The notes below the pieces were generated by a model. The model was given only the letters and a program-made list of their open reading frames with translations, did not search any database and had not been told where the DNA came from. A DNA stretch of 64,000 bases from Nitrospirota bacterium (GTDB lineage: Bacteria; Nitrospirota; Thermodesulfovibrionia; UBA6902; DSMQ01): the NCBI GenBank assembly GCA_016212185.1, contig JACRGX010000002.1, positions 3,760 to 67,759 on the forward strand, written 5' to 3'. Position numbers and translations under genes: made by a program. Below are positions 37,115 to 58,606 of this stretch, piece by piece (within the stretch, counting starts at the first letter, position 1; each line of letters begins with the position of its first letter).

Positions 37115-38032
37115 ATGTCCGGCAGCGTGCTGGTAGTTGATGATGAGCTTGTTGTTATAAAAAGCTGTGAAAGAATCTTAAATGCTGAAGGCTACAATGT
37201 AGACAGCGCCTCCGGCGGCGCAGAGGCATTGCGCAAAATAGAAAAAACTAACTACGACCTCGTGCTCACCGACCTAAAAATGCCCGGAATGGACGGCATA
37301 ACACTGATCAAACTGATAAAAAGGGCCAAACCCGCACAGGGCATTGTAGTCATTACAGGCTATCCGACGCAGGAGACAATCAAAGAAGCTCTTGAGATGG
37401 GCATCATTGATTATGTGCCAAAGCCGTTTACTCCGGCAGTGCTTACAGATGTTACGCACAGGGCCTTTCAATGGATAAAGGGGACAGTTGCTGGAGAAAA
37501 ACCAAAAGAGGAATTCCCTCCTGCCATGATTGCCGAGCTTGACAGGGTCCTCAGGGAATATAAAAACAAGCCGGGCAACGCAATACCCGCGCTTCAGCGC
37601 GCACAGGAAATCGTCGGATACCTGCCGCCCTTAATACAAAAACGTATTGCAAAAGGTTTAAATATATCGCCGGCTGAGATTCACAGCATTGTTTCGTTTT
37701 ACTCATTCTTTACAATGAAGCCGCGGGGCGACCACACGGTAAGGGTATGTCTCGGGACTGCATGTTATGTTAAAGGAATTGAGACAATAATAGCCAAACT
37801 TAAAGATACGCTAATGATAGATGTCGGCGGAATAACGGCAGATAAGAAATTCTCTCTTGAGACCGTCAGATGCCTTGGCGCCTGCGGCCTCGCGCCTGTC
37901 ATGGTCATAGACCATGATACATACGGCTCATTGACTCAGAAAAAGGCGGTAGATGCCCTGAGCAACTATGCCTCACTGCAGACGGCGGCGCTGTCCGAAG
38001 AGAAAGAATTTGCAGACAGCAAAGGAGATTAA
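37115..38032 (+). CDS. Receiver domain fused to a NuoE / HndA-type [2Fe-2S] thioredoxin-like subunit
   Basis: VLVVDDELVV...DLVLTDLKMPGMDG...KPF (REC), then RVCLGTACYVKG...RCLGACGLAPVM (NuoE-type four-Cys motif). Confidence 0.75.
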   Translation: MSGSVLVVDDELVVIKSCERILNAEGYNVDSASGGAEALRKIEKTNYDLVLTDLKMPGMDGITLIKLIKRAKPAQGIVVITGYPTQETIKEALEMGIIDYVPKPFTPAVLTDVTHRAFQWIKGTVAGEKPKEEFPPAMIAELDRVLREYKNKPGNAIPALQRAQEIVGYLPPLIQKRIAKGLNISPAEIHSIVSFYSFFTMKPRGDHTVRVCLGTACYVKGIETIIAKLKDTLMIDVGGITADKKFSLETVRCLGACGLAPVMVIDHDTYGSLTQKKAVDALSNYASLQTAALSEEKEFADSKGD

Positions 38033-40362: not shown

Positions 40363-40510
40363 TCGGGTTAGAGGATTCAAGGATTCGAGGGTTCAAGTAA
40401 ACTATGGAATTCGTTATAAGTTATAAGTTATAAGTTATAAGTTATAGGATAACGAATAACGTAGCGCTAAAATTCACTTGAATCCTTGACCGCTTGACCC
40501 CTTGAATCCT
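40363..40510. repeat. GGATTCAAGG-family palindrome with an internal (GTTATAA)5 heptamer tract; about 92% identical, in reverse orientation, to 56043..56185
   Basis: gggttagaggattcaaggattcgagggttcaagt ... (gttataa)x4gttatagg ... acttgaatccttgaccgcttgaccccttgaatcc. Confidence 0.7.
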
Positions 40511-40525
40511 TTGAAAGGTTTTATT

Positions 40526-43075
40526 ATGGTAACTTTAACAATTAACGGCAAACAAATTGAAGCTGTAGAAGGCACGACCATTCTTGAGGCTGCGCTGAAA
40601 AACGGCATCAGGATTCCAAACCTCTGCTATGACAGAAGGCTCAAGCCTTATGGCGCATGCAGGTTGTGCGTTGTTGAAGTGGAAGGTCAGCCGAGGCTTT
40701 TTGCTTCATGCTCAAGCCCGGTCACTGCAGGCATGGCGGTAAAAACTGATACGCCGAAACTGAGGAAGGCGCGCCAGACAGTGCTTGAGCTCATGCTGGT
40801 GCACCATCCTCTGGACTGCCCGCTATGCGACAAGGCCGGCGAGTGCGACCTTCAGGACTTTGCATACGACTACGGTAAACCTGAAGCGCGCTTTATCAGA
40901 CACCGGAAAGAAGCGCCTCCTGATGTAAGGGGTCCACTGGTAGAGCTGACTGCAAACAGATGCATTTTATGCGGCAAATGCGTGCGGCTGTGCGATGAGC
41001 ATCAGGGCCGGGGAGCATTAGGGTTTATCGGCAGGGGATTTTCTACAGTGGTCCAGCCTGCTTTCGGCGAAATACTTGAATGCGATTACTGCGGGCAGTG
41101 CATAGATGCATGTCCTACCGGCGCGCTTCTCAGCAAACCGTATAAATTCAAGGCAAGGCCCTGGTTCCTTGATGAAAAAGATACCATATGCCCGTTCTGC
41201 GGCTGCGGCTGCACCCTGACTCTCGGAATTCGGGATGGAGAAATATTAAGGTCACGGGGAGTAGAAGGCAGGGGACAAAGCAAAGGCAATCTCTGCGGCA
41301 GGGGCAGATTCGGCTTTGATTACATTTACAGCAAAAACCGCCTGAAGACCCCGCTGATTAGAATAAAGGATAAAAAAGAGGGTTCAAGGATTCAAGGATT
41401 CAAGGATTCAAGTGAAAAACTCGACCCCTCGACCCCTCGACCCCTCGACCCCTTTCCAAGTTTTAGAGAGGCTTCCTGGACTGAGGCGTTGAATTACATC
41501 AGCGAAAACCTCCGGTCTATTTCAGAACAACACGGGCCGTCTTCCATAGGCGCCATAGGCTCGCACAGATGCGCTAATGAAGATAATCATATGCTGCAAA
41601 AATTCATGAAGCACATTATCGGCTCAAACAATATTGACTCATCGGCAGCCTTTGGCTATGCAGTTGTTGAAAAGGCATGGGAAACGGCCTTCGGTCAAAA
41701 ATGCCACAGCATTAACCTTAAATCCCCGCTTGATAAAGAAGCCATTCTGATAGTTGAATCCGACCTGACTGTTACGCATCCGGTATTCGGGCTGAATATC
41801 TTACAGGCCAAAAGGGAAGGTTCAAAGCTTATTGTTGCCGACAGTAGGGAAACAAAACTTACAAGACACAGCTCGCAGAAGCTCAGGATAAAACCCGGGA
41901 CAGGCATAGCCCTGCTTAACGGAATAATGAAAATTATAATGGACAAAGAGCTCTTTGATAAAGAAAAGGTATCGGGTATTGCAGGTTTCTCAGCGCTTCA
42001 GACATTATTAGATGATTACACCACTGAGAAGGTCTGCAGGATTACCGGATTAACAGAAGCAGAGCTGACAGCAGCCTCTGAAACATATGCCCGCGCCAAA
42101 AGCAGAATGATTTCCCTCACAATAAGCGCTTCGGAGAACACCAAAGGCATGGATACCGTTCTTGCCGCTGCCAATCTTATCTTACTGCTTGGCGACAGCC
42201 ACAGCTCGCTTCAAATACCTGCGGAATATTCAAACAGCTTCGGCGCATATCACCTTTTGAACGGTTTAAACAATTCAAGCACAGGAAAAGATATTTTTGA
42301 AATGCTTTATAACCCGGACTCTATCAGGGCATTATATATCATGGGAGAAGACCCTGCGCTCAACTTCCCGGACACCTCAAGTATAATAAATAAGTTGAAG
42401 TCTTTGGATTTTCTGATTGTTCAGGACATAGCGCTTACTGAAACCGCAAAATTAGCGCATGTAGTCCTGCCTGCGTCAAGCTGGGCTGAAAAAGACGGAA
42501 CATTCACCAATGCCGAAGGGCTTAACCAGCGGCTGCAAAAAGTAATTGACACGGCAGAACAGCCTCTTCCTGACTGGAGGATATTGAAGGACCTTGCTTT
42601 ATGCATGGGGAAAGACACAGGCATAAGAAACATTGAAGATATTACCAAAGAAATAACTTCATCCTTCAACCCTCAACCTTCAACCCTCAACCCTCAACCT
42701 TGTTTTAGTCCGGTTAGTTACGCCCCTGCCGAAAAATCAGACAGTTATCCCATATCCCTGATACTCAGGGATATTCTTCAGCACTCAGGGAGCATGTCTG
42801 CACGGTCAAAATCACTGGACCTGGTGGCATCCGAGGCAATTCTTGAGATAAATGAAGAAGATGCCAAAAAACTCGGCATCACAGACAACAGTCATGTAAA
42901 AGTAAGTTCAAGCCGTACCAGTGTTTATCTTAAGGCAATGGTTTCCGACGAAATCCCGGAAGGCGCAGTGTTTGTCTCTGCACATTTTCCCCATGCAAAA
43001 ATAAACACCCTGACCTCTCCCTTCTTAAACGGCATGCCCTCTATCACCATGGTAAATATAGAAGCCGTGAAGTAA
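40526..43075 (+). CDS. NuoG / FdhA-like subunit (2Fe-2S, 4Fe-4S, MopB and molybdopterin-dinucleotide-binding domains) lacking the Cys/Sec Mo ligand
   Basis: The N-terminal FeS domains and MopB CPFCGCGCTL cluster are intact. Where FdhA has [18 protein letters not shown]...GSGAMTNS this protein reads NNIDSSAAFGYAVVEKAWETAFG. Start reassigned to the ATG at 40526 (GAAAGG RBS), outside the upstream hairpin. Confidence 0.75.
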   Translation: MVTLTINGKQIEAVEGTTILEAALKNGIRIPNLCYDRRLKPYGACRLCVVEVEGQPRLFASCSSPVTAGMAVKTDTPKLRKARQTVLELMLVHHPLDCPLCDKAGECDLQDFAYDYGKPEARFIRHRKEAPPDVRGPLVELTANRCILCGKCVRLCDEHQGRGALGFIGRGFSTVVQPAFGEILECDYCGQCIDACPTGALLSKPYKFKARPWFLDEKDTICPFCGCGCTLTLGIRDGEILRSRGVEGRGQSKGNLCGRGRFGFDYIYSKNRLKTPLIRIKDKKEGSRIQGFKDSSEKLDPSTPRPLDPFPSFREASWTEALNYISENLRSISEQHGPSSIGAIGSHRCANEDNHMLQKFMKHIIGSNNIDSSAAFGYAVVEKAWETAFGQKCHSINLKSPLDKEAILIVESDLTVTHPVFGLNILQAKREGSKLIVADSRETKLTRHSSQKLRIKPGTGIALLNGIMKIIMDKELFDKEKVSGIAGFSALQTLLDDYTTEKVCRITGLTEAELTAASETYARAKSRMISLTISASENTKGMDTVLAAANLILLLGDSHSSLQIPAEYSNSFGAYHLLNGLNNSSTGKDIFEMLYNPDSIRALYIMGEDPALNFPDTSSIINKLKSLDFLIVQDIALTETAKLAHVVLPASSWAEKDGTFTNAEGLNQRLQKVIDTAEQPLPDWRILKDLALCMGKDTGIRNIEDITKEITSSFNPQPSTLNPQPCFSPVSYAPAEKSDSYPISLILRDILQHSGSMSARSKSLDLVASEAILEINEEDAKKLGITDNSHVKVSSSRTSVYLKAMVSDEIPEGAVFVSAHFPHAKINTLTSPFLNGMPSITMVNIEAVK
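41380..41453 (+). repeat. In-frame tandem nonamer insert (GGATTCAAG)3-(CTCGACCCC)4 within the NuoG/FdhA-like CDS
   Basis: Encodes GSRIQGFKDSSEKLDPSTPRPLDP. A near-identical copy lies in the paralog at 55112..55184. Confidence 0.8.
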
Positions 43076-43159
43076 AAGTTAAAAACACTTGACACTACCG
43101 GTAAAATTTTATATAGTTTCAAAACGGCAAATAACCATATCTTATCGGGGGGGGATAAA

Positions 43160-43903
43160 ATGAAAAAAATAATCCTGTCTTGTTTTTGTTGTTCAGTACT
43201 CTTTATTCTGTCAGCAATCACTTCATCATCATCTGCCAGCGAGATAGATAAGCTGACCGGATGGAAATTTGCACAGCTTGCCAAGGGAGGCGTTTTATAC
43301 GACAACTGGCCCGCAGAACTCAGGGTAAAGATTGATAAGACACACCCCGCCTACCCTGCCGAAGGAAAAATTAAAGGCTTGGATACATGGCGCTGTAAGG
43401 AATGTCACGGCTGGGACTATAAAGGCAAGGCAGGCATTTATTCAAGCGGCGAGCATTATACAGGCATCGGAGGCATCAGGGCTTATGCCAATCAGGATCC
43501 GGTGGAAATAGTAAAAATACTTAAGAATAAAACCCATGCTCTTGGAAATATGATAGGAGAAAGTGATCTGGAAGCCCTGTCACTGTTTGTCTCCTTCGGG
43601 CAGATAGACATGGACCTCTACCTTGACCGTACAACAAAAAAGGTTATCGGCGAGCCTGCAAACGGCGCAAGGATATATCTGACCACATGCATAAAATGCC
43701 ACGGCGATGACGGCAAGGCAATAAATCACGGTACTATGCAAAACCCCATATATGTTGGAACGTCTGCAAATAAAAACCCGTGGGAAACCATTCACAAAAT
43801 CCGGTGGGGACATCCCGGAACCCAGATGATCTCCCTGCTCTTCTTAGGGCTGAAGGACCAGCTTGACGTCCTCTCCTTCTGCAAAACACTGCCGGAAGAA
43901 TAA
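43160..43903 (+). CDS. Secreted dihaem cytochrome c
   Basis: Signal peptide; CKECHG and CIKCHG (two CxxCH motifs). Confidence 0.8.
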   Translation: MKKIILSCFCCSVLFILSAITSSSSASEIDKLTGWKFAQLAKGGVLYDNWPAELRVKIDKTHPAYPAEGKIKGLDTWRCKECHGWDYKGKAGIYSSGEHYTGIGGIRAYANQDPVEIVKILKNKTHALGNMIGESDLEALSLFVSFGQIDMDLYLDRTTKKVIGEPANGARIYLTTCIKCHGDDGKAINHGTMQNPIYVGTSANKNPWETIHKIRWGHPGTQMISLLFLGLKDQLDVLSFCKTLPEE

Positions 43904-44150: not shown

Positions 44151-46799
44151 TTACTCTCCTGTCACCGTAAAATTCCCGCTGGTTACAGCCTTAGACAGCG
44201 CATTGTAATAAAGCGTTCCGTCAGATTTTTTAATCTGCACGCCTATTGCATCAGGACTGCCATCTGTTATTGTAGCTGTAAATGTATATCCGGCAGTTCC
44301 ATTCACAGTCCCTGTGCCTGTAACTGCTGCAATGCCGTTTGAAACCGTAATGCCGCTTATTGCCGTGCTCGCAAAATTCATCCTTGTCCGGGTGTAGTAG
44401 TACCTCACATAGCTCGTTCCAAGGGATGAGGCATTTACATTGACAGCTAACGTCGCTCTGAAGAATGGGATAGGGTAGTTATAAGCATTGCCTGAAACGG
44501 ATAGGACAGGCGTTGCAGGGTTGCAGTCATCGTCTATGTTGTTGTTTGGTATTTCGGCTGCTCCGGGATTTATTGATGGGTTGCTGTCATTACAATCCAC
44601 GGGACCAAAGCCGTCTTCTATGGCATACCCATCCCCATCATTGTCTGTGTATGTAGGCGGCAAACGCCATGTTCCGTGCGAGGAGCCGACATACACATAT
44701 CCATTGTGTGGGTTTACTGATATTGACCATGGCGTAAATTCTGGACCAAGGTTATATGTAATATTCTCCCATGTGTCCCCATAATTTATTGATCTAAAAA
44801 TTCCATTAGAATGCCCATAAAAATTTATCCATTTCCCAGCGTAAACAACATTTGGATGTTTTGGGTCTACTGTTATATATCGTGTACTGCATGTTCCAAA
44901 AGCGTCAGTTTCTAAGTTGCCTTCGCCTCCGCATGTTTTTAAATCCCATGTCGACCCATTCCAGATATGTACTCCTTCCCATAGTCCTGTCACATAAATT
45001 CTGTCTGGATTTTTAGGATCTATAAAAATTTCTCCGGGCCCTGAGGTGCCTATATCAACAGAGTCGTATGAAATCCAATTAGTTCCACCATCAGTTGATT
45101 TCGATAATGTTAAGATAAAACCATTCATGTCTGCAGCATAAATTATATTTTCATCACTTGCATCGCCCTGAAACATAGCAACAACTTTTTTAGAAAGCTC
45201 ACTCCAATTGTTACCTTTGTCAGTGCTCTTATATTTACCCGCGTAAACAATGTTTGGGTTCTGTGGATGGAAAGCAATAAAATTATAATTATCTTCAGTG
45301 TATTGTTTACCATTAGTTCCATCCATTAATGTCCAGTTTTGTCCCCCGTCCTGCGTTACGGCAATTACCTGATTAGTCCACCCGCCTACTGCGGTTACAA
45401 TTACGTTGGAATTAGGAGTAGGGTCAAGTGCACCTACCGGTGTTGTCCTAACACCGGTATAACGTGGTATTTTTAGATTTTTGAATGTTGAACCCCCATC
45501 TTCTGTGAGTACAGGACCGAAATCCATTAAAAATAATGCAAACCTATTGGGGTTGTTAGAGTCCCAACTAAAAGAAGTTGAGCTAACCCCTGCCCTTCCC
45601 CCTGTATAACCGTTTCCAGAATATGTCCAGGTATCTCCTCCATTGGTAGTTTTCTCAAGATGATTTCCGGCTCCAGAGGTTATTGCGATTTTTTCATTGT
45701 CTGGATTGATACCCGGATGGGTTGCAATTGGTGTACTATAATATTCCCCACCTTGTGAATCATTTACTTCATAAATTAAACTGCCGTTATCCATTGTAGA
45801 GGGTTTATACCAATTCTCTCCACCATTATGTGTATAATATGGGTGATTTCCCCCTAACATATAAAAACTTACATAAAGATAGTTGGGATCCTTAGAACTC
45901 ATTGCCAAATAGGTGGCTTTCTTGCCCTGATTCACAGGAGATAACCCAGTGTTCTTAGGGCTGAAACTATTACCACCATCAGTGGATTTATAAACTCCCT
46001 TTGTTCCAACTGTGACATAAATAATATTAGGATTATTGGGATTCACTACTATCGCCCTTGGAAAATCATCTATTGGGAGATCAGTTCCTATCGGTTCAAG
46101 AGTTACTGTTCCATTGTCAGTTACTTTGTAAAGTCCATTCTCGGTAGCTAAAAATATAATAGAGGAGTTCTGGGGATTTACCTTTACATCCAATATTTTT
46201 GTTCCTGATAATATATTTAATGGACTCCATGTGTCTCCTCCATCTATGGATTTTAATAGTCCTTCCTCATGAGTGCCAGCATAAATAGTATTTGCTCCTG
46301 CAAAGGCAAAATTAACCCCACCTTTTTTGGCTCCTAAACTATAAAAATGAGTTGGATAAACCCTATTCCAACTTTCTCCTCCATCTTGTGTTCTGTATAT
46401 GCCGTCTGCAATTTCATTTGATTCTGTTTGGTAACTTGAGCCGGCTACAAAGACAATATTTTCATTGTTTGGATGAACAGCTAAAGAGATTCCTCCATTT
46501 GCTAAAAATCCTTTATGCTTCATTTGCCATGTATTACCCCCATCCTTGCTTTTCCATACCTGGGATGTGTTTGACACTAAATATAAAATATAAGGATTTG
46601 ATGGTGCGTAACTAAGTCCCCAAACCATCTGCATACCCTCTCCACCAGACATCCCCTCATTTTCTTGTGCTTGAGTACGCAGAGGCACCTGTTGCCAAGT
46701 TTGAGACGCAGCTTCCACTTTTGCATACAAAGCTGTCATAAAAATGATTAATAAGAATAAGCTGTAAACAGTTTTTTTCATAATCTGTCTCCTTGTCAA
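44151..46799 (-). CDS. Large secreted BNR/Asp-box repeat protein with a C-terminal MopE-like motif
   Basis: Signal peptide; at least 10 SxDxGxTW-type motifs (SKDGGNTW, TQDGGESW, STDGGTNW ...); C-terminal DNDGDGYA...GPVDCNDSNP. Confidence 0.75.
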   Translation of the reverse strand: MTRRQIMKKTVYSLFLLIIFMTALYAKVEAASQTWQQVPLRTQAQENEGMSGGEGMQMVWGLSYAPSNPYILYLVSNTSQVWKSKDGGNTWQMKHKGFLANGGISLAVHPNNENIVFVAGSSYQTESNEIADGIYRTQDGGESWNRVYPTHFYSLGAKKGGVNFAFAGANTIYAGTHEEGLLKSIDGGDTWSPLNILSGTKILDVKVNPQNSSIIFLATENGLYKVTDNGTVTLEPIGTDLPIDDFPRAIVVNPNNPNIIYVTVGTKGVYKSTDGGNSFSPKNTGLSPVNQGKKATYLAMSSKDPNYLYVSFYMLGGNHPYYTHNGGENWYKPSTMDNGSLIYEVNDSQGGEYYSTPIATHPGINPDNEKIAITSGAGNHLEKTTNGGDTWTYSGNGYTGGRAGVSSTSFSWDSNNPNRFALFLMDFGPVLTEDGGSTFKNLKIPRYTGVRTTPVGALDPTPNSNVIVTAVGGWTNQVIAVTQDGGQNWTLMDGTNGKQYTEDNYNFIAFHPQNPNIVYAGKYKSTDKGNNWSELSKKVVAMFQGDASDENIIYAADMNGFILTLSKSTDGGTNWISYDSVDIGTSGPGEIFIDPKNPDRIYVTGLWEGVHIWNGSTWDLKTCGGEGNLETDAFGTCSTRYITVDPKHPNVVYAGKWINFYGHSNGIFRSINYGDTWENITYNLGPEFTPWSISVNPHNGYVYVGSSHGTWRLPPTYTDNDGDGYAIEDGFGPVDCNDSNPSINPGAAEIPNNNIDDDCNPATPVLSVSGNAYNYPIPFFRATLAVNVNASSLGTSYVRYYYTRTRMNFASTAISGITVSNGIAAVTGTGTVNGTAGYTFTATITDGSPDAIGVQIKKSDGTLYYNALSKAVTSGNFTVTGE

Positions 46800-46826: not shown

Positions 46827-46962
46827 ATGGGGTCAGGTCTTCATTCTTCACTTAGCCCTCTCCAAAACAAATAAATATAACGATTCCATTTTTTCTTTTC
46901 ATCTTTATAAACCCTTTCTTCATCTTCTCTCTATATTTTTGACAGAAAAATTATTTATATGG
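46827..46962. repeat. About 135-nt conserved intergenic element, copy B, in the divergent region between the BNR gene and hicB
   Basis: atggggtcaggtcttcattcttcacttagccctctccaaaacaaataaatata...tttgacagaaaaattatttatatgg. Confidence 0.6.
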
Positions 46963-47006
46963 TAAAGTTGAGTAAATAGTTTTCTAAAATAGGAGATTTT
47001 ATAAAA

Positions 47007-47201
47007 TTGCACGCGATAATTGAACAAGATGAAGCAGGTTATTATGTAGCCGAAGTGCCGGCGCTTCCGGGGTGTCTTTCTCAGGGGAAAACTTATGAAG
47101 AAGCCATTGCCAATATCAAAGAAGCTATTGAGGGTTGGTTTGAGGTAATGGAATCTAAACAAGTCATTGATTCTTCCCGTCTTATTGAAGTTGCTGTTTG
47201 A
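47007..47201 (+). CDS. hicB: HicB-family antitoxin
   Basis: EQDEAGYYVAEVPALPGCLSQGKTYEEAIANIKEAIEGWFE; TTG start. Confidence 0.65.
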   Translation: MHAIIEQDEAGYYVAEVPALPGCLSQGKTYEEAIANIKEAIEGWFEVMESKQVIDSSRLIEVAV

Positions 47202-47428
47202 TGAGTAAAAAAAATTTAAAACTCTGCTCAGGTGCAGAAGCAGTCCGAAAATTCCAGGAAGCAAGCTGGACTGCTGTCCGGCAAAAAGGCTCCTATGTAA
47301 TGATGACAAAACCCGGCTATCAGTGGACATTATCCATTCCTCAGCATAAAGAACTCGGTCCCGGACTGCTCCGCAAACTGATAAATCAAGCTGGACTTAC
47401 CGTAGAAAAATTTAATAATTTGCAGTAA
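47198..47428 (+). CDS. hicA: HicA-family mRNA-interferase toxin
   Basis: Overlaps the hicB stop (ATGA); KGSYVMMTKPG...HKELGPGLLRKLINQAGL. Confidence 0.65.
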   Translation: MMSKKNLKLCSGAEAVRKFQEASWTAVRQKGSYVMMTKPGYQWTLSIPQHKELGPGLLRKLINQAGLTVEKFNNLQ

Positions 47429-50195: not shown

Positions 50196-50756
50196 TTAAC
50201 CGCTCTTAACCATCGCATTGTTGGAAATCTTCAATCCCCTGTAAATATAATGTATGCCAGAGGCTGCCGTAAGAAATGCAACTGCAACCATAAAAAATAC
50301 AGGCATTTCGGCGTTCCCCTTTATATTAATTAATAACAGCGCAAACCCTATCAGGAAAAACTGGCAGAGGTTTGCAGCCTTTCCCACAAGGCTCGGCTCA
50401 ACCCTTACGGTATGTGTGACAAAATAAAAAATCAGCCAGCCCGTCACCACAATCAGATCCCTGCTTATAACCGTAATTGTAAGCCACTTCGGTATCCAGC
50501 CGTAAACGCTCATCAAAATAAAAGACGTTATAAGCAGGAACTTATCCGCAACCGGATCCAGTATGCCTCCCAATGCCGTTATCTGTTTTTTCGCCCTTGC
50601 CAAAAGCCCGTCAAGTATGTCGGTAATTCCGGCCGACAGAAAAAGAATAAGGCTGTATTCATAGTAACCGTAAATTAAAGTCGCCGCAAAAAAAGGCAGT
50701 AACAATATCCGGATTATTGTCAAAATATTGGGAAGATTGCCTGTTATCGGTCCCAA
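50196..50756 (-). CDS. pgsA: CDP-diacylglycerol--glycerol-3-phosphate 3-phosphatidyltransferase
   Basis: DILDGLLAR...GGILDPVADK (CDP-alcohol phosphatidyltransferase motif). Confidence 0.8.
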   Translation of the reverse strand: MGPITGNLPNILTIIRILLLPFFAATLIYGYYEYSLILFLSAGITDILDGLLARAKKQITALGGILDPVADKFLLITSFILMSVYGWIPKWLTITVISRDLIVVTGWLIFYFVTHTVRVEPSLVGKAANLCQFFLIGFALLLINIKGNAEMPVFFMVAVAFLTAASGIHYIYRGLKISNNAMVKSG

Positions 50757-50779: not shown

Positions 50780-52543
50780 CTAAAACAGCCCTTTAACCTT
50801 GCCTGTATTTACATCCACGTCAACTCTGCGGTATGCAGGGTCTGATGCTGTTCCCGGCATCAACTTAATTGCGCCTGCAACCGGAACAACAAAGCCCGCG
50901 CCTTTGTAAGTGAGAATGTCACGGATGAGAAGCTTCCACCCTTTTGGCACGCCTTTTAAATTAGGATTGTCGGTTAAACTCAGATGGGTCTTGACCATGC
51001 ATGTTCCGAGTTTTGAAGTCTCGGGGTCTTCCTCCATCTTCTTTGCCTTTACAAACGCATCAGGAGCATATTCCACGCCGTCTGCTCCGTAAACTTCTGT
51101 TGCAATTAATTCAATGCGCTTGCGTAATGGTGTGGAAAGTTCATAAAGAAACTTGAAGTTGTTCGGTTCATTGCACGCATCAACAACCGCATCCGCAAGT
51201 TCAAGGGCCCCTTCACCGCCAAACTGCCAGTGTTTTGAGAGCGCAACTCTTGCGCCTGCCGTCTCTGCAATCCTGCGGACAGCCTTTATCTCATTGTCGG
51301 TGTCTGTATAAAAAGCGTTTATGCAGACAACAGGATTAATGCCTGCCTTCTTAACGACATTCACCAGATGAATAAGATTTACACAGCCCTTTTCCACCCA
51401 GCCGACATTTTCACCCTTGTATTCTTCAGGTATCGGCCTTCCCGGCACAGGAATCGGAGCGCCGCCGTGGCATTTTAAGGCCCTGATTGTAGCAACGAGA
51501 ACCGCTGCATTAGGCTTCAGTCCTGAGAACCTGCATTTTAGATTCCAGAATTTCTCAAAACCGATGTCTGCCGCAAACCCGGACTCCGTCACATTATAAT
51601 CAGCAAGCTTAAGTCCGATCCTGTCTGCAATAATAGACGACTGCCCGATTGCAATATTGGCAAAAGGACCTGCATGTACAAGGACCGGCTGTCCCTCAAT
51701 CGTCTGCATGAGATTGGGATTGAGCGCCTCCACCATCCAGGCAGTCATTGCGCCTGCGACATTAAGGTCTTCTGTTGTAACGGGCTTGCCGCTCTTGTCA
51801 TAGGCCACAACAATCCTCCCCATTCTCTCTCTCATGTCCTTTAAATCTTTTGCGACAGCAAGGATAGCCATAACCTCTGATGAAACCGCTATTGCAAATC
51901 CGGAATTCATCATAAAGCCGTCGTTTTTGCCGCCTAATCCTATTGTTATCTCTCTTAACGCCTGCGCACAGAAATCCATTATCCATTTCATCTCAATATT
52001 GCGCGGGTCAATGTTGAGCCTCTTTAATTTGCGCTTCGCAAGCTGTTCGTCAGTGTAGTTGAATTCGTGCTGTATGCGGGACGTAAGCGCAACCATTGCA
52101 AGATTGTGAGCATTCATGATTGCATTGATGTCGCCGGTAAGCCCTAATGAAAACGGGGTCAGAGGAATGCACTGCGACAATCCGCCGCCTGCGGCAGAAC
52201 CCTTAATGTTCATCGTCGGTCCGCCGGATGGCTGCCGGATGGCTGCTATAACATTCTTTTTACGCTTGCCAAGCCCCTGAGTCAATCCGATTGTTGTTGT
52301 TGACTTGCCTTCTCCCAGAGGGGTCGGTGTAATAGCGGTAACATCAATGTATTTTCCGTCCGGTCTGCCGGCAAGACGTTTCAGTATCTTATTAAAGTCA
52401 AGCTTTGCCACATAATGCCCGTGCGGCAAAAGTTCTTCCTTTTCAAGACCAAGTTCCTCTCCTAACTGATAAACAGTCTTCATGTGCGCTTCAGCGGCTT
52501 CTGCAATCTCCCAGTCTGCGTGCTTGGTTGGATCAATCGGCAT
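50780..52543 (-). CDS. fhs: Formate--tetrahydrofolate ligase
   Basis: [15 protein letters not shown]; 587 aa. Confidence 0.9.
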
Positions 52544-52690: not shown

Positions 52691-53146
52691 TTAGTAGCTT
52701 ATCAGCATACCTAAAAACTTCTCGTTCATGCGCCTTAAATTTTTGCATATGATTAAAAGCATCTTCTTCGTTATCTTTACGGCAAGGACAAGATTCTCCT
52801 TCTCCATTTTTTCAAAATCTTCTTTTGGTATCAGAAATATCTCCGTATTTTCAAGCGCGACTGCATTTGCCTCATGCCGTCTTTTTTCAAGTATTGACAG
52901 CTCTCCTAAAAAATGGCCTGTCCCCAGAATGGCAAGTGTCTGTTTCCATTCGTCAGGAGTGACCTTGGAAATTTCTACTTTCCCGGAATGTATGAGATAG
53001 AGCCCTTTTGTCTCTTCCTTTTCCTTAAAAAGATATTCGCCTTTTTTAAAAGACAGCTTTTTTACTATCTTCGCAATGCTTTCAAGCCCTGCCTCATCAA
53101 TGTCTTCAAGCAGGACCTGCTGTTTTAATATCGCCGGCTTAATCAT
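52691..53146 (-). CDS. Stand-alone cyclic-nucleotide-binding domain protein (Crp-like cNMP domain, no HTH)
   Basis: FKKGEYLFKEKEETKGLYLIHSGKVEI...GELSIL. Start moved to the ATG at 53146 (GAGGGGG RBS), outside the repeat element. Confidence 0.6.
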   Translation of the reverse strand: MIKPAILKQQVLLEDIDEAGLESIAKIVKKLSFKKGEYLFKEKEETKGLYLIHSGKVEISKVTPDEWKQTLAILGTGHFLGELSILEKRRHEANAVALENTEIFLIPKEDFEKMEKENLVLAVKITKKMLLIICKNLRRMNEKFLGMLISY

Positions 53147-53170
53147 AATACCCCCTCTGCATAATATGTT

Positions 53171-53248
53171 ATCATTCCCGCGAAAGCGGGAATCCAGGAA
53201 ACAACTTTCTGGATTCCGCATTCCCGATACATCGGGGCGGAATGACGA
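53171..53248. repeat. GGAATGAC-family element (cattcccgcgaaagcgggaatcc ... tctggattccgcattcccgatacatcggggcggaatgacg)
   Basis: Read directly. Confidence 0.5.
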
Positions 53249-53269: not shown

Positions 53270-56035
53270 TTAACTTTTAACTCTTAACTTTTCTATCTTC
53301 ACCGCACATACCTTCAGCTCAGGTATCTTACACACAGGGTCAAGGGCGGTATTTGTAAGGACATTGGCTGCTGCCTCCCTGTAGTGGAATGGTATAAACA
53401 CCATTCCCTTTACAGGTTTTTCTGAAATCTGCACCTTGATTTCTATCTCCCCCCTCCTTGAAGATACCTTTACCGCCTGCCCTTCGGTAATGCCGAGCCT
53501 GCCGGCATCCTCAGGGTTCAGTTCAACATATGCCTCAGGGGCAACAGCATTTAATGCATCTACCCTTCTCGTCATTGAACCGGTGTGATAATGAAAAAGC
53601 TGCCTTCCCGTAGAAAGCAGAAACGGATACTCTTCGTCAGGAAGTTCCTGTGAACGCCTGTATTCTACCACAGTAAACACCGCTTTTCCCTTTGGGAAGC
53701 CTCCTTTAAAAAGATACGGAGTCCCGGGATGGTCCAGCGTGGGGCAGGGCCATTGAATTCCGTGTTTATCAATCCTTCCGTAAGTAATGCCTTTGACAGT
53801 CTGCCAGACGTTTCCGATTTCCTGAAAGACTTCTTCCACGAAATTATACTTCATAACAAAGTCAAGCCTTCTGCTTAACTCTGAAATTATCCATAAATCC
53901 TCTCTGGCCTCTCCGGGAGGATTTAATGCCTTCCTTACCCTTTGCACCCTTCTTTCAGTATTGGTAAAAGTCCCTTCTTTTTCCGCAAAACTCGCCGCAG
54001 GCAATACCACATCTGCAAGCGCCGCCGTCTCTGTCATAAATATATCCTGAACAACAAGGAAGTCAAGATTCTTTAATGCCTTTACCGTATGATTCATATC
54101 AGGGTCGCTCATCACAGGATTTTCACCCATAACATAAAACGCCTTCAGTCTTCCGTCAAGCGCAGCACCGGTCATTTCCGTCGCAGTCATTCCGGGCTTG
54201 TCTGAAAGCTTTGCGTTCCAGGCCTCTTCAAACTTGGTCCTGACGGCCGGCATATCAACCCTCTGATAGCCTGTATAGAGATTAGGAATGCACCCCATGT
54301 CCGTAGCTCCCTGTACATTATTCTGCCCCCTGAGTGGGTTGACGCCGGTGCTTTCCATGCCGAGATTTCCTGTCATAAGGGCCAGATTTGCAATTGCATA
54401 GACATTCTCAGTGCCGTGTGAATGCTGTGTTACGCCCATAGTGTAATATATGGCAGGATACTGCGCCCTGCCGTACAGCAATGCGGCGTCAATTATTTTT
54501 TGCTTTGGAACTCCTGTAATCTTTTCGGCATATTCAGGCGTATATTTGCTGAGGCTTTCTTTAAATTCACTAAATCCCTCTGTACGAACGAGTATAAACA
54601 CCCTGTCAATCAGTCCCTCTTTAAGAAGCACATGCATCATAGAATTCAGCAGCACTACATCTGTGCCTGATTTATGCTGAATCCATACATCTGCAAACCT
54701 TACAATATCAATCCTCCTCGGGTCGGCGACAATAATCTTTGCGCCGTTTCTCACTGCCTTTTTCATCTTAAGCCCGATAATAGGATGGGTTTCAGTAGTA
54801 TTAGAGCCGATTATAAAAATAACATCATTGTTTTCAATCTCAGGAATGGAGTTTGTCATAGCTCCTGAGCCGAAGACTGTAGCCAGACCGGCCACCGTTG
54901 CGCTGTGTCAATACCTTGCGCAGTGGTCTACATTGTTCGTGCTGAGGCCTGCCCTGATAAATTTCTGGAACAGATAGTTCTCTTCATTTGTGCATCTTGC
55001 AGATGAAAGCCCTCCTATTGCATCAGGACCGTGCTTTTCTTTTACTGCCTTTAATTTTTCTGCAATATAATCAAGCGCCTCATCCCAGGAAGCCTCTCTG
55101 AAACTTGAAAAGGGGTCGAGGGGTCGAGGGGTTGAGGGGTCGAGTTTTTCACTTGAATCCTTGAATCCTTGAATCCTTGAACCCTCTTTTTTATCCTTTA
55201 TTCTGATAAGCGGTTTTGTGAGCCTGTCACCGCTTCCCACAAACTGATACCCGAACCTTCCCTTGGAGCACAGCCATCCTTCATTTATAGTGTCTTCCCT
55301 TGATGTAATCCGCACAATCTCATTCTTCCTGACGTGAAGCGTCAGACTGCATCCGCACCCGCAGTACGGACAGGTTGTATCAATCTCTTTTATGTCCTTC
55401 TGCCTTCCCTTAAGTTCCCACATCTTGCCTGTCAGCGCTCCGGTCGGGCAAACTGCAACACACTGCCCGCAGAACTCGCACATAAGGTCTTTCTCAAAAG
55501 GCGTGCATATCTTTGAACTGAATCCCCTGTATCCAAAATCTATGGCTGCAACCCCCTCAATCTCATCGCAAGCCTTCACACACCTGCCGCACATTATGCA
55601 CTTCTCAAGGTCTCTTTCAATAAAGGGGTTGCCGTCTCTCTTTTTGTAGATTCTTCTTTCCCCTTCAAACCTGTTTTCCCTGATACCGTAAAAATAAGCA
55701 AGCTCCTGAAGCATGCAGTCCCCTGCCTTTTCGCATACCATACAGTCATTGGGGTGGTCTGAGAGGATTAACTCAAGAATAGTCTTTCTCAATCCCTCAA
55801 GATTGGGGCTTGTTGTAGTCACCTCCATGCCCTCGCTTACAGGGGTAGTGCATGACGTTACAGGTCTTGCCATGCCTTTAATCTCCACAAGGCAAAGCCT
55901 GCACCCCCCGAAGGCCGTCAGCTTGGGATGATGACAGAGCGCCGGGATGGAAATATCAATTTTTTTTGCCGCAGAAAGGATATTAGTCCCTGCCGGAACC
56001 GTCACCTTTCTGCCGTCTATCGTTAAAGTTACCAT
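53270..56035 (-). CDS. fdhA: Formate dehydrogenase alpha subunit (FdhA/FdsA type) with in-frame TGA = selenocysteine at 54908..54910
   Basis: ORF-track pieces 54908..56059 and 53270..54895 join across one TGA to read ...[30 protein letters not shown]..., matching the E. coli FdhF Sec site CARVUHGPSVAGL. N-terminal 2Fe-2S/4Fe-4S domains plus the C-terminal Mo-bisPGD domain. Start at ATG 56035. Confidence 0.8.
55112..55184 (-). repeat. In-frame (GGATTCAAG)3-(CTCGACCCC)4 insert in fdhA, paralog of 41380..41453
   Basis: Encodes GSRIQGFKDSSEKLDPSTPRPLDP; nucleotide sequence is near-identical to the copy in the other operon. Confidence 0.8.
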
Positions 56036-56042
56036 AATTAAA

Positions 56043-56185
56043 CCTTTCAAAGGGTTCAAGGGGTCAAGCGGTCAAGGATTCAAGTGATTTTTAGCTCTAA
56101 GTTATTCGTTATCCTAATAACTAATAACTTATAACGAATTTTATAGTTTACTCGCACCCTCGAATCCTTGAATCCTCTAACCCTA
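56043..56185. repeat. GGATTCAAGG-family palindrome between fdhA and the nuoF-like gene (reverse-complement copy of 40363..40510)
   Basis: agggttcaaggggtcaagcggtcaaggattcaagtgat ... heptamer tract ... cgcaccctcgaatccttgaatcctctaaccct. Confidence 0.7.
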
Positions 56186-56186
56186 T

Positions 56187-57968
56187 TTATTCTTTTTGCA
56201 CTGCCTTAAACTTGCATACATCAAAGCATGCACCGCATTTTATGCATATATCAGCATTTATTGTATGCAGTTTCTTCTTCTCACCGGTCACTGCGCCTGC
56301 CGGGCAGACCCTGAGGCATGCGCCGCAGCCTTTGCAGAACTCTGCCAGGACAGAATACGTCAGCAGGTCTTTGCAGACGCCTGCCGGACATTTCTTGTCT
56401 TTTATATGAGTTATATATTCATCTTTAAAGTAATTTAGAGTGCTGAGAATGGGATTGGGCGCAGTTTGTCCGAGACCGCAGAGGGATGCTGATTTTACAT
56501 CCCGGCTCAGTTGTTCAAGAACTGCAATATCGCCCTCCCTGCCCTCGCCTTTTGTAATCCTCGTTAAAATCTCAAGAAGCCTCTTGGTCCCTATCCTGCA
56601 CGGCACGCATTTCCCGCACGACTCAGCCTGCGTAAATTCAAGAAAGAATTTCGCGACATTGACCATGCAGTCTGTCTCATCAAGGACCACCATTCCCCCG
56701 GAGCCGACAATAGAGCCGACCCTGGCAAGGGATTCATAATCCACCGGCGTATCCAGCAGTGATGCCGGTATGCAGCCGCCGGAAGGCCCCCCTGTCTGCA
56801 CTGCCTTGAATGCCTTATCGCCCTCTATGCCTCCGCCTATGTCATAAATAATTTCCCTTAGCGGAATGCCCATCGGAACTTCTATCAAACCTGAATTCTT
56901 AATCTTCCCTGTCAATGCAAAGACCTTTGTGCCCTTGGATTTCTCAGTGCCGTAAGAGGCAAACCACTTGGCGCCGTTTCTAATAATGACAGGGACATTG
57001 GCAAATGTCTCCACATTGTTGATTACCGTCGGTTTTTCCCAGAGCCCCTGATATACGGGGAACGGCGGCTTGGCCCTCGGCATGCCGCGCTGTCCCTCAA
57101 TAGACGCAATCAGCGCTGTTTCTTCTCCGCATACAAATGCGCCGGCGCCGAGCTTTACCTTTATATCAAAACTGAATTTCGTGCCCATTATATTTTTGCC
57201 TAAAAAGCCTTTTTTCTTTGCATGAGATAGCGCCAGTTTCAGCCTTTCAACTGCAAGAGGATATTCTGCCCTTATGTAAACATAGCCCTTGTCAGCGCCA
57301 ATCGCATAGGCTCCGATAACCATGCCTTCAATGACCGCATGGGGATTGCCTTCAATAACAGACCGGTCCATGAATGCGCCGGGGTCGCCCTCATCCGCAT
57401 TACAGATAATATATTTTTGAGCGGACTGGTTCTTTCTGCATATCTCCCATTTCTGCCCTGTCGGAAAACCCGCTCCGCCCCTGCCCCTCAATCCTGAATC
57501 CTTAATAATGCCTATCGCCTCTTCAGGCGTCATTGCAGTTAAAACTTTTTTTGCCGCTTCATAACCGCGGACTGCCGTGTATGCGTCAATATCCTCGGGG
57601 TCTATGCTGCCGCAGTCAGCAAGCACAACCTTAAACTGCTTTTTATGGAAATTATGATAATCCTCACCTGCAACCCAGTCCTGAACAGCGGTTTTACCAA
57701 TTATGTGCTCTGTGACAATCCTCAGAACCATGTCAGGCTTTATAAATTGATACGTTACTTTTTCATCATTGATAATCACATCTACCAGCACGTCCTTTGC
57801 GCAGAGTCCGCGGCAGCCGACTTTGTGCATGGAACAGTTTTTCTGCACCACGGCGTCTATGCCTGCCGCTTTAATCTCCTTGTTAAAGGCATCCAGCACC
57901 TCAGCGCCTCCGGCGGCAATGCCGCCAGTTCCCATACACACCTTTATAATGGTGTTACTCATCTTCAC
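56187..57968 (-). CDS. NuoF / HndC-like NAD(P)H-binding flavoprotein with fused 2Fe-2S and 2x[4Fe-4S]
   Basis: GRGGAGFPTGQKWE, ESCGKCVPCR, CKGCGACLRVCP...CIKCGACFDVC. Confidence 0.85.
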   Translation of the reverse strand: MKMSNTIIKVCMGTGGIAAGGAEVLDAFNKEIKAAGIDAVVQKNCSMHKVGCRGLCAKDVLVDVIINDEKVTYQFIKPDMVLRIVTEHIIGKTAVQDWVAGEDYHNFHKKQFKVVLADCGSIDPEDIDAYTAVRGYEAAKKVLTAMTPEEAIGIIKDSGLRGRGGAGFPTGQKWEICRKNQSAQKYIICNADEGDPGAFMDRSVIEGNPHAVIEGMVIGAYAIGADKGYVYIRAEYPLAVERLKLALSHAKKKGFLGKNIMGTKFSFDIKVKLGAGAFVCGEETALIASIEGQRGMPRAKPPFPVYQGLWEKPTVINNVETFANVPVIIRNGAKWFASYGTEKSKGTKVFALTGKIKNSGLIEVPMGIPLREIIYDIGGGIEGDKAFKAVQTGGPSGGCIPASLLDTPVDYESLARVGSIVGSGGMVVLDETDCMVNVAKFFLEFTQAESCGKCVPCRIGTKRLLEILTRITKGEGREGDIAVLEQLSRDVKSASLCGLGQTAPNPILSTLNYFKDEYITHIKDKKCPAGVCKDLLTYSVLAEFCKGCGACLRVCPAGAVTGEKKKLHTINADICIKCGACFDVCKFKAVQKE

Positions 57969-58455
57969 CTTTGACGCCTTTCAGCGTCTTTATCTCTTTA
58001 ATCAGCTTGTCCGCAGATGATTTGCCGTAAACTTTTTTATTGATTATAAATACAGGCGCAATACTGCAGGCGCCGACACAGTTAACCTTTTCCACTGTGA
58101 TTTCTTTGTCCTTTGTGGTGTCCTCGTCATCTGACAAGCTAAGCTCCCTTCTCACTCCGTTCAGAAGCCTCTCAGAGCCTTTCACGTGGCAGGCCGTGCC
58201 GCAGCAGGCTGTTATGATGTTTTTGCCCCTCGGCGTTAGATGAAACTGCGCATAAAAAGTTACAACGCCGAAGAACCTGCTTGCAGGGATTTGAAGTTTC
58301 TTTGAAACCCAGTTTACCGCATCCTCAGAAATATAGCCGAGCGACGCTTCTATATCCTGGAGTATGGAGATAATGTTTCCTTCTTCTGCAATATGCTTAT
58401 TAAGAAGTGCATTTAATTTTTTTTCTACATCCAACAATACTTCTCCACGAGCCAT
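57955..58455 (-). CDS. NuoE / HndA-like [2Fe-2S] subunit
   Basis: ACCGTACHVKG...CVGACSIAPV. The ATG at 58455 is preferred over the TTG at 58467. Confidence 0.7.
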   Translation of the reverse strand: MARGEVLLDVEKKLNALLNKHIAEEGNIISILQDIEASLGYISEDAVNWVSKKLQIPASRFFGVVTFYAQFHLTPRGKNIITACCGTACHVKGSERLLNGVRRELSLSDDEDTTKDKEITVEKVNCVGACSIAPVFIINKKVYGKSSADKLIKEIKTLKGVKGEDE

Positions 58456-58606
58456 AGGCAGCACCAAACCTCCATGATACGCAGGGTAAATACTTGTATC
58501 ATTATTGTTGCAGTGATGAGTTTAGAAGGCTTTAAACTTTACCACAGTGTAAAGTTTAGTGTCAAATTAATTTCTTTTTGCTGGGTATAAAATTAACTGA
58601 TAAGGG

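What the first reader, a model, noticed from the sequence alone, without database searches (positions are those of the whole stretch)
54908..54910. In-frame TGA in fdhA encodes selenocysteine; the ORF track splits the gene
Joining 54908..56059 and 53270..54895 across the single TGA gives [30 protein letters not shown]. This aligns residue-for-residue with the Sec140 region of E. coli FdhF (CARVUHGPSVAGL) and with the Cys / Sec Mo ligand of FdhA / FdsA enzymes. The gene therefore encodes a 921-aa selenoprotein formate dehydrogenase in an operon with NuoE- and NuoF-like subunits, of the NAD(P)H-linked, possibly bifurcating, type. Use of Sec in this genome also makes Sec-containing variants of the Cys-rich rSAM domain at 11784 plausible in relatives.
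Basis: partly seen in the sequence, partly recalled or inferred. Interest (0 to 1): 0.55.

Follow-up and report, generated by a model that had tools for sequence, protein, structure and literature searches.

The report
Selenocysteine UGA in formate dehydrogenase gene
The single in-frame TGA that splits this formate dehydrogenase gene is an ordinary selenocysteine codon with its recoding hairpin just downstream, a well-known feature that gene callers routinely mis-split, so it matters only for annotation.

Summary
Confirmed and ordinary. On the minus strand, ORFs 54908..56059 and 53270..54895 are one 921-codon fdhA (ATG 56035 to TAA 53270), interrupted only by TGA 54908-54910 (codon 376). That codon aligns with Sec140 of E. 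coli FdhF and with the catalytic Cys in 113 of 116 full-length database homologues. It aligns with TGA in 63 of 82 genomic homologue sites, including all 40 sites in L002-L040, the loci with the best matches (58-74% identity). A 6-bp hairpin with a GGUCU loop follows at +16 to +32. It sits in the same register as the E. coli fdhF SECIS. The stem is perfect in 59/64 TGA genes but only 1/19 Cys genes, with compensatory changes. The Rfam SECIS_3 hit (34 bits, below the cut-off of 63) is not discriminating, because Cys-type genes score as high. No sel genes or tRNA-Sec lie in the window, and the source genome could not be retrieved. The operon nuoE-nuoF-fdhA-cNMP-fhs is conserved in Thermodesulfovibrionales relatives. 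The NuoF-like subunit is of the HydB/BfuB type, so "possibly bifurcating" is reasonable but unproven. More unusual is a side observation. A palindromic octamer-repeat element is inserted in frame in fdhA and, nearly identically, in a paralogue.

The parts
53270..56035 (-). fdhA, one 921-codon gene (NuoG-like N-terminal Fe-S domains fused to a molybdopterin formate dehydrogenase catalytic domain), ATG 56035 to TAA 53270-53272
   Evidence: Translation. Pfam Fer2_4, NADH-G_4Fe-4S_3, Fer4_Nqo3, Molybdop_Fe4S4, Molybdopterin and Molydop_binding. NCBIfam TIGR01591 Fdh-alpha at 876 bits against a cut-off of 666.
54908..54910 (-). UGA codon 376, read as selenocysteine (the Mo/W ligand)
   Evidence: Aligns with Sec140 of E. 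coli FdhF, with Cys in 113/116 full-length homologues, and with TGA in 63/82 genomic homologue sites, including all 40 sites in L002-L040.
54876..54898 (-). SECIS hairpin. Apical 6-bp stem 54890-54895 / 54879-54884, loop GGUCU 54885-54889, two further pairs below an internal mismatch. The loop G and U are nt 23-24 counted from the U of UGA.
   Evidence: Fold. Same register as E. coli fdhF. Stem perfect in 59/64 TGA genes against 1/19 Cys genes, and loop GGTCT in 58/64 against 5/19. Compensatory changes (against control). Rfam SECIS_3 spans 54855-54913 at 34 bits, below the gathering score and non-discriminating.
56187..57968 (-). NuoF-like flavoprotein subunit of HydB/BfuB type (N-terminal Cys-rich thioredoxin-like region, FMN, SLBB, NuoF 4Fe-4S, C-terminal 2x[4Fe-4S])
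   Evidence: Pfam, sequence, solved-structure matches.
57955..58467 (-). NuoE-like [2Fe-2S] subunit (BfuC/HoxE/FdsG-like)
   Evidence: Pfam PF01257 at 1e-40, NCBIfam.
52691..53221 (-). cyclic-nucleotide-binding-domain protein, conserved between fdhA and fhs in relatives
   Evidence: Pfam, synteny.
50780..52543 (-). formate--tetrahydrofolate ligase (fhs), the next step for formate in the Wood-Ljungdahl methyl branch
   Evidence: Pfam FTHFS at 760 bits, synteny.
55101..55189 (-). in-frame octamer-repeat insertion in fdhA: (GGATTCAA)x4, spacer, (CTCGACCC)x4, encoding ~29 extra residues KEGSRIQGFKDSSEKLDPSTPRPLDPFSS
   Evidence: Most homologues have 6 residues at this position.
56041..56188 (-). 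intercistronic palindromic octamer/heptamer-repeat element between nuoF and fdhA, ending just before the fdhA ribosome-binding site
   Evidence: RNA fold -48.2 kcal/mol, z -6.1. 85% identical to the element upstream of the paralogue at 40344-40550.

Best explanation
fdhA is a single intact gene for the catalytic subunit of a cytoplasmic, NuoEF-linked formate dehydrogenase. Its codon 376 (UGA) is recoded as selenocysteine, the Mo/W ligand. During translation a SelB-type elongation factor carrying Sec-tRNASec would bind the hairpin that starts 13 nt after the UGA (apical loop GGUCU) and deliver Sec when the ribosome reaches the UGA. The full 921-residue selenoprotein is therefore made, not a 375-residue fragment. 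Shown here: the position of the UGA, its conservation in orthologues, and a hairpin maintained specifically in UGA-containing genes. Inferred: the presence of selA/B/C/D in this genome, actual Sec insertion, the metal, and the electron acceptors. The enzyme sits with a HydB/BfuB-type flavoprotein and a NuoE-like subunit upstream of fhs. It most likely interconverts CO2 and formate with NAD(H), and possibly ferredoxin, for the Wood-Ljungdahl methyl branch of a sulfate-reducing member of the Thermodesulfovibrionales.
For: There is one stop only, at the catalytic position, with 375 and 545 intact conserved codons on either side. The protein passes TIGR01591. The UGA aligns to Sec140-His141 of E. 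coli FdhF, and the catalytic Arg is conserved. Cys occupies this column in 113/116 full-length homologues. TGA occupies it in 63/82 homologous sites in other genomes, including all 40 sites in L002-L040, the loci with the best matches. The same holds in a 94%-identical relative, whose only change in the stem turns G-U into G-C. The hairpin stem is perfect in 59/64 TGA genes against 1/19 Cys genes. Synonymous third positions are frozen only in TGA genes: the Gly third base is T in 60/64 against 7/19. Compensatory pairs are seen, GC to AU/UA/CG at 21:33 and CG to AU at 24:30. 82% of cells are paired against 55% in the Cys control, and 0/500 shuffles reach the observed covariation score, against 328/500 in the control. 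The loop GGUC lies at nt 22-25 from the UGA, as in E. coli fdhF. Thermodesulfovibrio genomes are reported to carry complete selA/B/C/D (PMC5389517). The operon order is conserved in relatives.
Against: No selA, selB, selD or tRNA-Sec lies in the 64-kb window. The one AIR-synthase-like ORF is ThiL, not SelD. The source genome could not be found, so the machinery is unverified. Single-sequence folding of the region is no better than shuffled sequence (z -0.94 and +0.13). The Rfam SECIS_3 score of 34 bits is below the gathering score of 63, and Cys-type genes score similarly at 22-35 bits, so that hit reflects coding similarity. The Sec and Cys gene sets are phylogenetically structured, so the counts are not independent events.
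Confidence: 0.95

Rival explanations
1. The gene is a pseudogene or a genuine split: a nonsense mutation at the former Cys codon leaves two fragments.
For: Gene callers report two ORFs here and in a 94% relative (P0039). The sel genes are not verified for this genome.
Against: The stop is exactly at the catalytic codon and is TGA in all 40 sites in L002-L040, the loci with the best matches. Both halves are intact and 58-74% identical to orthologues. A hairpin is maintained at synonymous sites only in TGA genes. A split would separate the metal ligand from its neighbouring active-site residues.
Confidence: 0.02
2. A sequencing or assembly error turned TGC/TGT into TGA.
For: None specific. It is a single-base difference from Cys codons.
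Against: An independent metagenome contig (L001, 94% protein identity) has the same TGA and hairpin. So do 62 other genomic sites. The downstream synonymous sites carry the Sec-type signature rather than the Cys-type one.
Confidence: 0.01
3. UGA376 is decoded, wholly or under selenium shortage, as cysteine by a tRNASec-like tRNACys(UCA) (selC*), so the enzyme can exist as Sec and Cys isoforms from one gene.
For: selC* tRNACys genes were reported in Thermodesulfovibrio and relatives alongside complete Sec machinery. An opal-decoding selC* tRNA inserted Cys at a Sec codon in a reporter (PMC5389517).
Against: No such tRNA is in the window. The Thermodesulfovibrio selC* anticodon was not checked here. 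Nothing in the sequence distinguishes this from plain Sec insertion.
Confidence: 0.04
4. UGA is a sense codon (Trp or Gly) throughout this genome.
For: TGA is a rare stop: 2 of 41 genes.
Against: Only one long gene in 64 kb has an internal TGA. TGA does terminate two genes. The aligned residue in homologues is Cys or Sec, never Trp or Gly, apart from one degenerate paralogue with Trp.
Confidence: 0.005

Closest known systems
E. coli formate dehydrogenase H (FdhF, Sec140) and its fdhF SECIS
   Same: 43% identity across the whole catalytic part. Sec-His and the catalytic Arg are conserved. The UGA is followed by a hairpin whose GGUC loop lies at nt 22-25 from the UGA in both genes.
   Different: The window protein has a ~215-residue NuoG-like N-terminal extension with extra Fe-S clusters and a ~29-residue repeat-derived insertion. 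The stem pairing register differs by one base and there is no bulged U17 (U17 is paired here). It partners with NuoE/NuoF-like subunits, not with the hydrogenase-3 complex (that FdhF partners hydrogenase 3 is from my own knowledge).
Fdh-Bfu (Type 1 BfuABC electron-bifurcating enzymes; Schut et al. 2022, PMC9304861), and the solved Bfu-type complexes Stn (8oh5), NfnABC (9n5u), NiFe-HydABCSL (7t2r) and FeFe-HydABC (7q4v, 8a6t, 7p5h)
   Same: Three-gene module of NuoE-like (BfuC), NuoF-like with extra Fe-S domains (BfuB), and a NuoG-like subunit fused to a pterin formate dehydrogenase domain (BfuA). The B subunit matches these structures over its full length at 650-836 bits.
   Different: No Type 1 Fdh-Bfu has been characterised biochemically according to that paper. 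Bifurcation is a prediction here. The ligands of the unusual B2 [2Fe-2S] cluster were not checked.
NAD-dependent FdsABG / FoDH1 formate dehydrogenases (Rhodobacter capsulatus 6tg9, Cupriavidus necator 6vw7, Methylorubrum extorquens 7vw6 and 7e5z)
   Same: The alpha subunit has the same NuoG-fused architecture and gives the best full-length solved matches (762 bits, residues 4-914).
   Different: Those enzymes use Cys at the active site (my own knowledge; not checked here). Their beta subunits lack the C-terminal 2x[4Fe-4S] domain: they match only residues ~46-518 at 369-433 bits. They do not bifurcate (PMC9304861).
Rfam RF01989 SECIS_3 (formate dehydrogenase SECIS)
   Same: Full-length match (model positions 1-59) with the UGA and the GGUCU/AGUCU loop aligned.
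   Different: The score is 34 bits against a gathering score of 63. The lower stem is largely unpaired here. Cys-type genes score 22-35 bits with the same model.

Membership tests
Formate dehydrogenase alpha subunit (NCBIfam TIGR01591, Fdh-alpha equivalog) | Whole-protein score above the curated cut-off | tested here: met
   876.2 bits against a cut-off of 666.25, with Cys substituted for the TGA.
Formate dehydrogenase alpha subunit (NCBIfam TIGR01591, Fdh-alpha equivalog) | Active-site Sec/Cys-His pair and catalytic Arg (Sec140, His141 and Arg333 of E. coli FdhF; the residue numbering is established knowledge) | tested here: met
   U376-H377 and R569 in NPLRGQNNVQG align with U140-H141 and R333.
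Bacterial selenoprotein gene | In-frame UGA at a position occupied by Cys in homologues, with conserved coding sequence on both sides | tested here: met
   Cys in 113/116 homologues. TGA in 63/82 genomic sites. There is only one such split in the window.
Bacterial selenoprotein gene | SECIS hairpin immediately 3' of the UGA with conserved loop G and U, maintained by selection | tested here: met
   6-bp stem and GGUCU loop at +16 to +32. Perfect in 59/64 Sec genes against 1/19 Cys genes, with compensatory changes. Single-sequence fold energy alone is not significant.
Bacterial selenoprotein gene | selA, selB, selC (tRNA-Sec) and selD present in the same genome | not testable with these tools
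   None are in the window. The source genome is not on record. The literature reports them in Thermodesulfovibrio (PMC5389517).
Rfam RF01989 SECIS_3 | Score at or above the family gathering threshold (63 bits) | tested here: not met
   34 bits. Sec-type relatives score 25-39 bits and Cys-type genes 22-35 bits.
BfuABC electron-bifurcating family (PMC9304861) | BfuB with NuoF FMN domain, SLBB, NuoF 4Fe-4S and ferredoxin-type 4Fe-4S domains; BfuC with NuoE-type domain; BfuA with at least 2Fe-2S and 4Fe-4S ferredoxin-type domains | tested here: met
   PF01512, PF10531 (25.9 bits, just under its cut-off of 27), PF10589 and PF00037 x2 in the 593-aa protein. PF01257 in the 170-aa protein. PF13510 and Fer4 domains in FdhA. 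Cys motifs are visible.
BfuABC electron-bifurcating family (PMC9304861) | Extra clusters B2-B5 in BfuB that non-bifurcating homologues lack | tested here: inconclusive
   The N-terminal Cys-rich domain and the C-terminal CxxCxxCxxxCP motifs are present, and full-length matches go to bifurcating HydB/NfnB/Stn B subunits. The B2 ligands were not aligned residue by residue.
BfuABC electron-bifurcating family (PMC9304861) | Coupled reduction of NAD+ and ferredoxin by the third substrate | not testable with these tools
   This needs enzyme assays.

The most novel reading that the evidence does not exclude
UGA376 might be decoded facultatively, as Sec when selenium is available and as Cys through a selC*-type tRNACys(UCA) when it is not. 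That system has been reported in Thermodesulfovibrio and related anaerobes. It would give two isoforms of a central carbon-metabolism enzyme from one gene, without the separate Cys paralogue that other organisms keep.
Probability: 0.04. Interest if true: 0.5.

Novelty: already known. Interest (0 to 1): 0.1.

Why it matters
The main consequence is for annotation and metabolic inference. The two ORFs must be merged with a Sec exception, otherwise the organism appears to lack an intact formate dehydrogenase next to fhs. It also predicts that this sulfate-reducing Thermodesulfovibrionales bacterium needs selenium and carries sel genes elsewhere. The comparison exposes a database bias. All 116 full-length homologues in the protein collection that could be scored at this column are non-Sec (113 of them Cys), because Sec versions are stored as fragments (for example P0039). 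At the DNA level every one of the closest homologues found uses TGA. Protein searches alone therefore give the wrong picture of how this clade uses Sec.

Tried and rejected
(1) I tested the 347-aa AIR-synthase-like ORF at 2265..3308 as a SelD candidate. It is ThiL: TIGR01379 scores 263 bits above its cut-off, while selD scores 70 bits, far below its cut-off.

(2) I searched for tRNA-Sec with ARAGORN in the window and in 30 related loci. None was found.

(3) I tried to recover the source contig through exact-protein look-ups of two window genes. Neither is on record. The best genomic relative is only 74% identical, so the sel genes of this genome could not be examined.

(4) Single-sequence RNA folding of the SECIS region gave z-scores of -0.94 and +0.13. 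This is uninformative for a 6-bp hairpin inside a GC-rich coding stretch.

(5) I considered the Rfam SECIS_3 hit as independent evidence and rejected it after the control showed similar scores on Cys-type genes.

(6) I scanned all large ORFs of the window with Pfam for SelA, SelB and SelD domains. None was found. The ORFs that were not scanned are too short (282 aa or less) to encode them.

(7) I considered a reassigned genetic code and rejected it.
Full report
Observation. On the minus strand the ORF list gives 54908..56059 (383 aa) and 53270..54895 (541 aa) in one frame. Translating 53270-56059 gives a single internal stop in ...[29 protein letters not shown].... The stop is TGA at 54910-54908. 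The real start is the ATG at 56035 (MVTLTIDG..., with AAAGG seven bases upstream). It matches the N-termini of homologues and gives a 921-residue product with the TGA at codon 376. A six-frame scan shows this is the only place in the window where two long frames (387 and 545 codons) are separated by one TGA.

What the gene is. With Cys substituted for the stop, the protein has the domain order Fer2_4, NADH-G_4Fe-4S_3, Fer4_Nqo3, Molybdop_Fe4S4, Molybdopterin, Molydop_binding. It passes the NCBIfam equivalog TIGR01591 Fdh-alpha (876 bits, cut-off 666). I fetched the real E. coli K-12 fdhF. BLASTP gives 43% identity over 715 residues and places the TGA opposite Sec140. His141 and the catalytic Arg (NPLRGQNNVQG against NPVRGQNNVQG) are conserved. 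The best solved full-length relatives are the NAD-dependent W/Mo formate dehydrogenases of Methylorubrum and Rhodobacter and the HDCR FdhF.

Is the TGA a Sec codon? Three comparisons bear on this.

(i) In the protein collection, 113 of 116 full-length homologues that could be scored have Cys at this column. None has Sec, because gene callers split such genes. The 94%-identical hit P0039 is exactly the 541-residue downstream fragment. Its contig (L001) shows the same TGA.

(ii) At the DNA level, a scan of species-representative genomes returned 80 loci. Among 82 homologous sites, 63 have TGA, 10 TGT and 9 TGC. All 40 sites found in L002-L040, the loci with the best matches (58-74% identity; Nitrospirota/Thermodesulfovibrionales and Desulfobulbales), have TGA. 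A nonsense mutation or a sequencing error cannot explain a stop that is conserved at the catalytic codon across phyla while both flanks remain under protein-coding constraint.

(iii) The SECIS. Directly after the UGA the window reads UGACACAGCGCAACGGUGGCCGGUCUGGCUACAGU. GUGGCC and GGCUAC form a 6-bp stem around a GGUCU loop. Counting from the U of UGA, the loop GGUC is at nt 22-25, the same register as in E. coli fdhF (UGACACGGCCCAUCGGUUGCAGGUCUGCACC). It is established knowledge, not tested here, that G23 and U24 of that loop are the SelB contacts.

I aligned this segment from the 64 TGA genes (A1) and the 19 Cys genes (A2). The proposed helix is paired in 82% of cells in A1 against 55% in A2. 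Pair 21:33 occurs as GC, AU, UA, CG, GU and UG, and pair 24:30 as CG and AU. None of 500 shuffles reaches the observed covariation score in A1, against 328 of 500 in A2. Slid controls fall to 17-56% paired. The 6-bp apical stem is perfect in 59/64 TGA genes against 1/19 Cys genes. The loop is GGTCT in 58/64 against 5/19. The synonymous third base of the Gly codon inside the loop is T in 60/64 against 7/19. In L001 the only change in the stem turns G-U into G-C. The sets are phylogenetically structured, so these are not independent counts. However, the TGA set spans several phyla and includes compensatory variants such as GUUGCA...UGCAAC.

Evidence that did not help. Single-sequence folding is no better than shuffled sequence (z -0.94 and +0.13). 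Rfam gives a full-length SECIS_3 match at 34 bits (E 2e-6 for the small region searched), below the gathering score of 63. A control shows the same model scores 22-35 bits on Cys-type genes and 25-39 bits on Sec-type relatives. That hit therefore mostly reflects the conserved coding sequence and should not be counted as independent support.

Sec machinery. The window has no tRNA gene. None of its large ORFs carries SelA, SelB or SelD domains. The AIR-synthase-like ORF at 2265..3308 is ThiL. A published survey reports the complete selA/B/C/D set in Thermodesulfovibrio genomes, together with tRNASec-like tRNACys (selC*) genes (PMC5389517). This makes Sec use in the order unsurprising. It also leaves a small possibility of facultative Cys insertion at UGA.

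Context and mechanism. The gene order nuoE-like (57955..58467), nuoF-like (56187..57968), fdhA, a cNMP-binding protein (52691..53221) and fhs (50780..52543) is conserved in the Nitrospirota relatives. The rest of the window carries sat, aprBA, qmoABC-like genes, a H+-pyrophosphatase and adenylate kinase. The organism is therefore a sulfate reducer of the Thermodesulfovibrionales, judging by the source names of the homologues.

The NuoF-like protein has an N-terminal Cys-rich thioredoxin-like region and a C-terminal 2x[4Fe-4S] domain. It matches the B subunits of the Stn and NfnABC transhydrogenases and of the NiFe- and FeFe-HydABC bifurcating hydrogenases over its full length at 650-836 bits. 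It matches non-bifurcating FdsB at only 369-433 bits over residues ~46-518. This fits the domain definition of the Bfu family and its predicted Type 1 Fdh-Bfu, in which the pterin domain is fused to BfuA (PMC9304861).

Comparison and novelty. Sec-containing FdhA with a SECIS directly after the UGA is the textbook bacterial selenoprotein. This is one more orthologue, and close relatives show the same arrangement. I rate it as already known and of low interest. Its practical value is to merge the two ORFs and to infer a selenium requirement.

Side observations.

The fdhA loop between RLTKPLIR and FREASWDEAL holds a ~29-residue insertion encoded by (GGATTCAA)x4, a short spacer, and (CTCGACCC)x4. 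Most homologues have 6 residues there. Several Thermodesulfovibrionales relatives have unrelated insertions of 17-36 residues at the same site.

A paralogous NuoG-like gene in the window (40502..43075) has a degenerate active site (SNNIDSSAAFGY). It carries the same insertion at the homologous position with 93% DNA identity over 149 nt. The upstream intercistronic elements of the two genes are 85% identical, while the rest of the two genes is barely alignable at the DNA level. Similar palindromic octamer elements sit between other cistrons (24761-24877, 38421-38525, 40362-40514, 56041-56188). The one before fdhA folds at -48.2 kcal/mol (z -6.1). The intragenic copy does not fold well (z -0.9).

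The arm motif has at least 120 exact hits in metagenome contigs. Of the 80 fetched, 32 are short palindromic elements. Another 12 are followed by the N-terminus of a 23S-rRNA-intervening-sequence protein: the L140 ORF matches PF05635 at E 1.7e-38. Two are FdhA orthologues (68% identity, also TGA) with the same in-frame insertion. This looks like an ORF-less derivative of an IVS-protein-associated palindromic element that is tolerated in frame in a loop of FdhA. It was either homogenised between the paralogues or inserted twice. I did not resolve which.

Noticed in passing
window 55101-55189 (-) in fdhA; window 41369-41460 (+) in the paralogue 40502..43075: The same ~90-nt octamer-repeat element, (GGATTCAA)x4, spacer, (CTCGACCC)x4, is inserted in frame at the homologous loop of two diverged paralogues. 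Identity is 93% over 149 nt, while the genes are otherwise barely alignable at DNA level. It adds ~29 residues (KEGSRIQGFKDSSEKLDPSTPRPLDPF[SP]S). Either gene conversion or repeated site-specific insertion could explain this. Metagenome FdhA orthologues L141 and L152 (68% identity) have the same kind of insertion. Other relatives (L003, L004, L005, L008, L010, L011, L025, L027) have unrelated 17-36-residue insertions at the same spot.
   Followed up: partly
window 24761-24877, 38421-38525, 40362-40514, 56041-56188: A family of palindromic elements built from octamer arms (GGRKTCAA / TTGAMYCC) around AT-rich heptamer repeats. All copies sit between cistrons of operons (qmoB-qmoC, the second nuoEFG-like cluster, nuoF-fdhA). 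The copy before fdhA folds at -48.2 kcal/mol (z -6.1). The arm motif has at least 120 exact hits in metagenome contigs of GC 36-61%. In 12 of 80 fetched loci it is followed within 200 nt by the N-terminus of a 23S-rRNA-intervening-sequence protein (PF05635 confirmed for the intact L140 ORF, whose stop overlaps the right arm). These may be ORF-less derivatives of an IVS-type element, perhaps RNase III processing sites.
   Followed up: partly
window 37115-43903 (+): A second NuoEFG/Bfu-like cluster. It comprises a response-regulator-NuoE fusion (37115..38032), a 127-aa weak NuoE-like ORF, a NuoF-like protein with a C-terminal ferredoxin domain (38534..40360), a NuoG-fused molybdopterin-type protein with no Cys/Sec-His active site (40502..43075), and a cytochrome-c-like protein (43160..43903). 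It may be the Nuo-Bfu type that PMC9304861 lists for Nitrospirae.
   Followed up: partly
window 47640-47719 (-): A c-di-GMP-I riboswitch (RF01051, 52.4 bits, above its gathering score of 35) lies upstream of the minus-strand genes 46920..47330 and 44151..46799. The latter is an 882-aa protein with Sortilin/BNR-type repeats.
   Followed up: no
window 23626-33130 (-): A dissimilatory sulfate-reduction block: adenylate kinase, ATP sulfurylase, AprB, AprA-like, QmoA-like, QmoB-like (HdrA/MvhD fusion) and QmoC-like genes, followed by a membrane H+-pyrophosphatase (21326..23404). It identifies the organism as a sulfate reducer.
   Followed up: partly
protein collection hits P0001-P0120; loci L002-L081: A database bias. 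Every scorable full-length homologue in the protein collection is non-Sec (113 Cys). At the DNA level, all 40 sites in L002-L040 (the best-matching loci) use TGA. Sec versions exist in the collection only as split fragments, such as P0039.
   Followed up: yes
L039 (4931 and 11003), L071 (3670 and 11051), L072 (3862 and 1055): Some relatives carry two fdhA paralogues within ~7 kb: Sec plus Sec in L039, and Sec plus Cys in L071 and L072. This is the classic pattern of selenium-dependent isoenzymes.
   Followed up: no
window 35418-35530 and 46856-46963; 47769-47819 and 61301-61351; 58599-58641 and 60255-60297; 50157-50198 and 61751-61792: Four pairs of 42-75-nt direct repeats at 81-91% identity, apparently in intergenic regions. 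They could be shared promoter or regulatory sequences.
   Followed up: no
It has no in-frame TGA, and nothing links it to selenium.
   Followed up: partly
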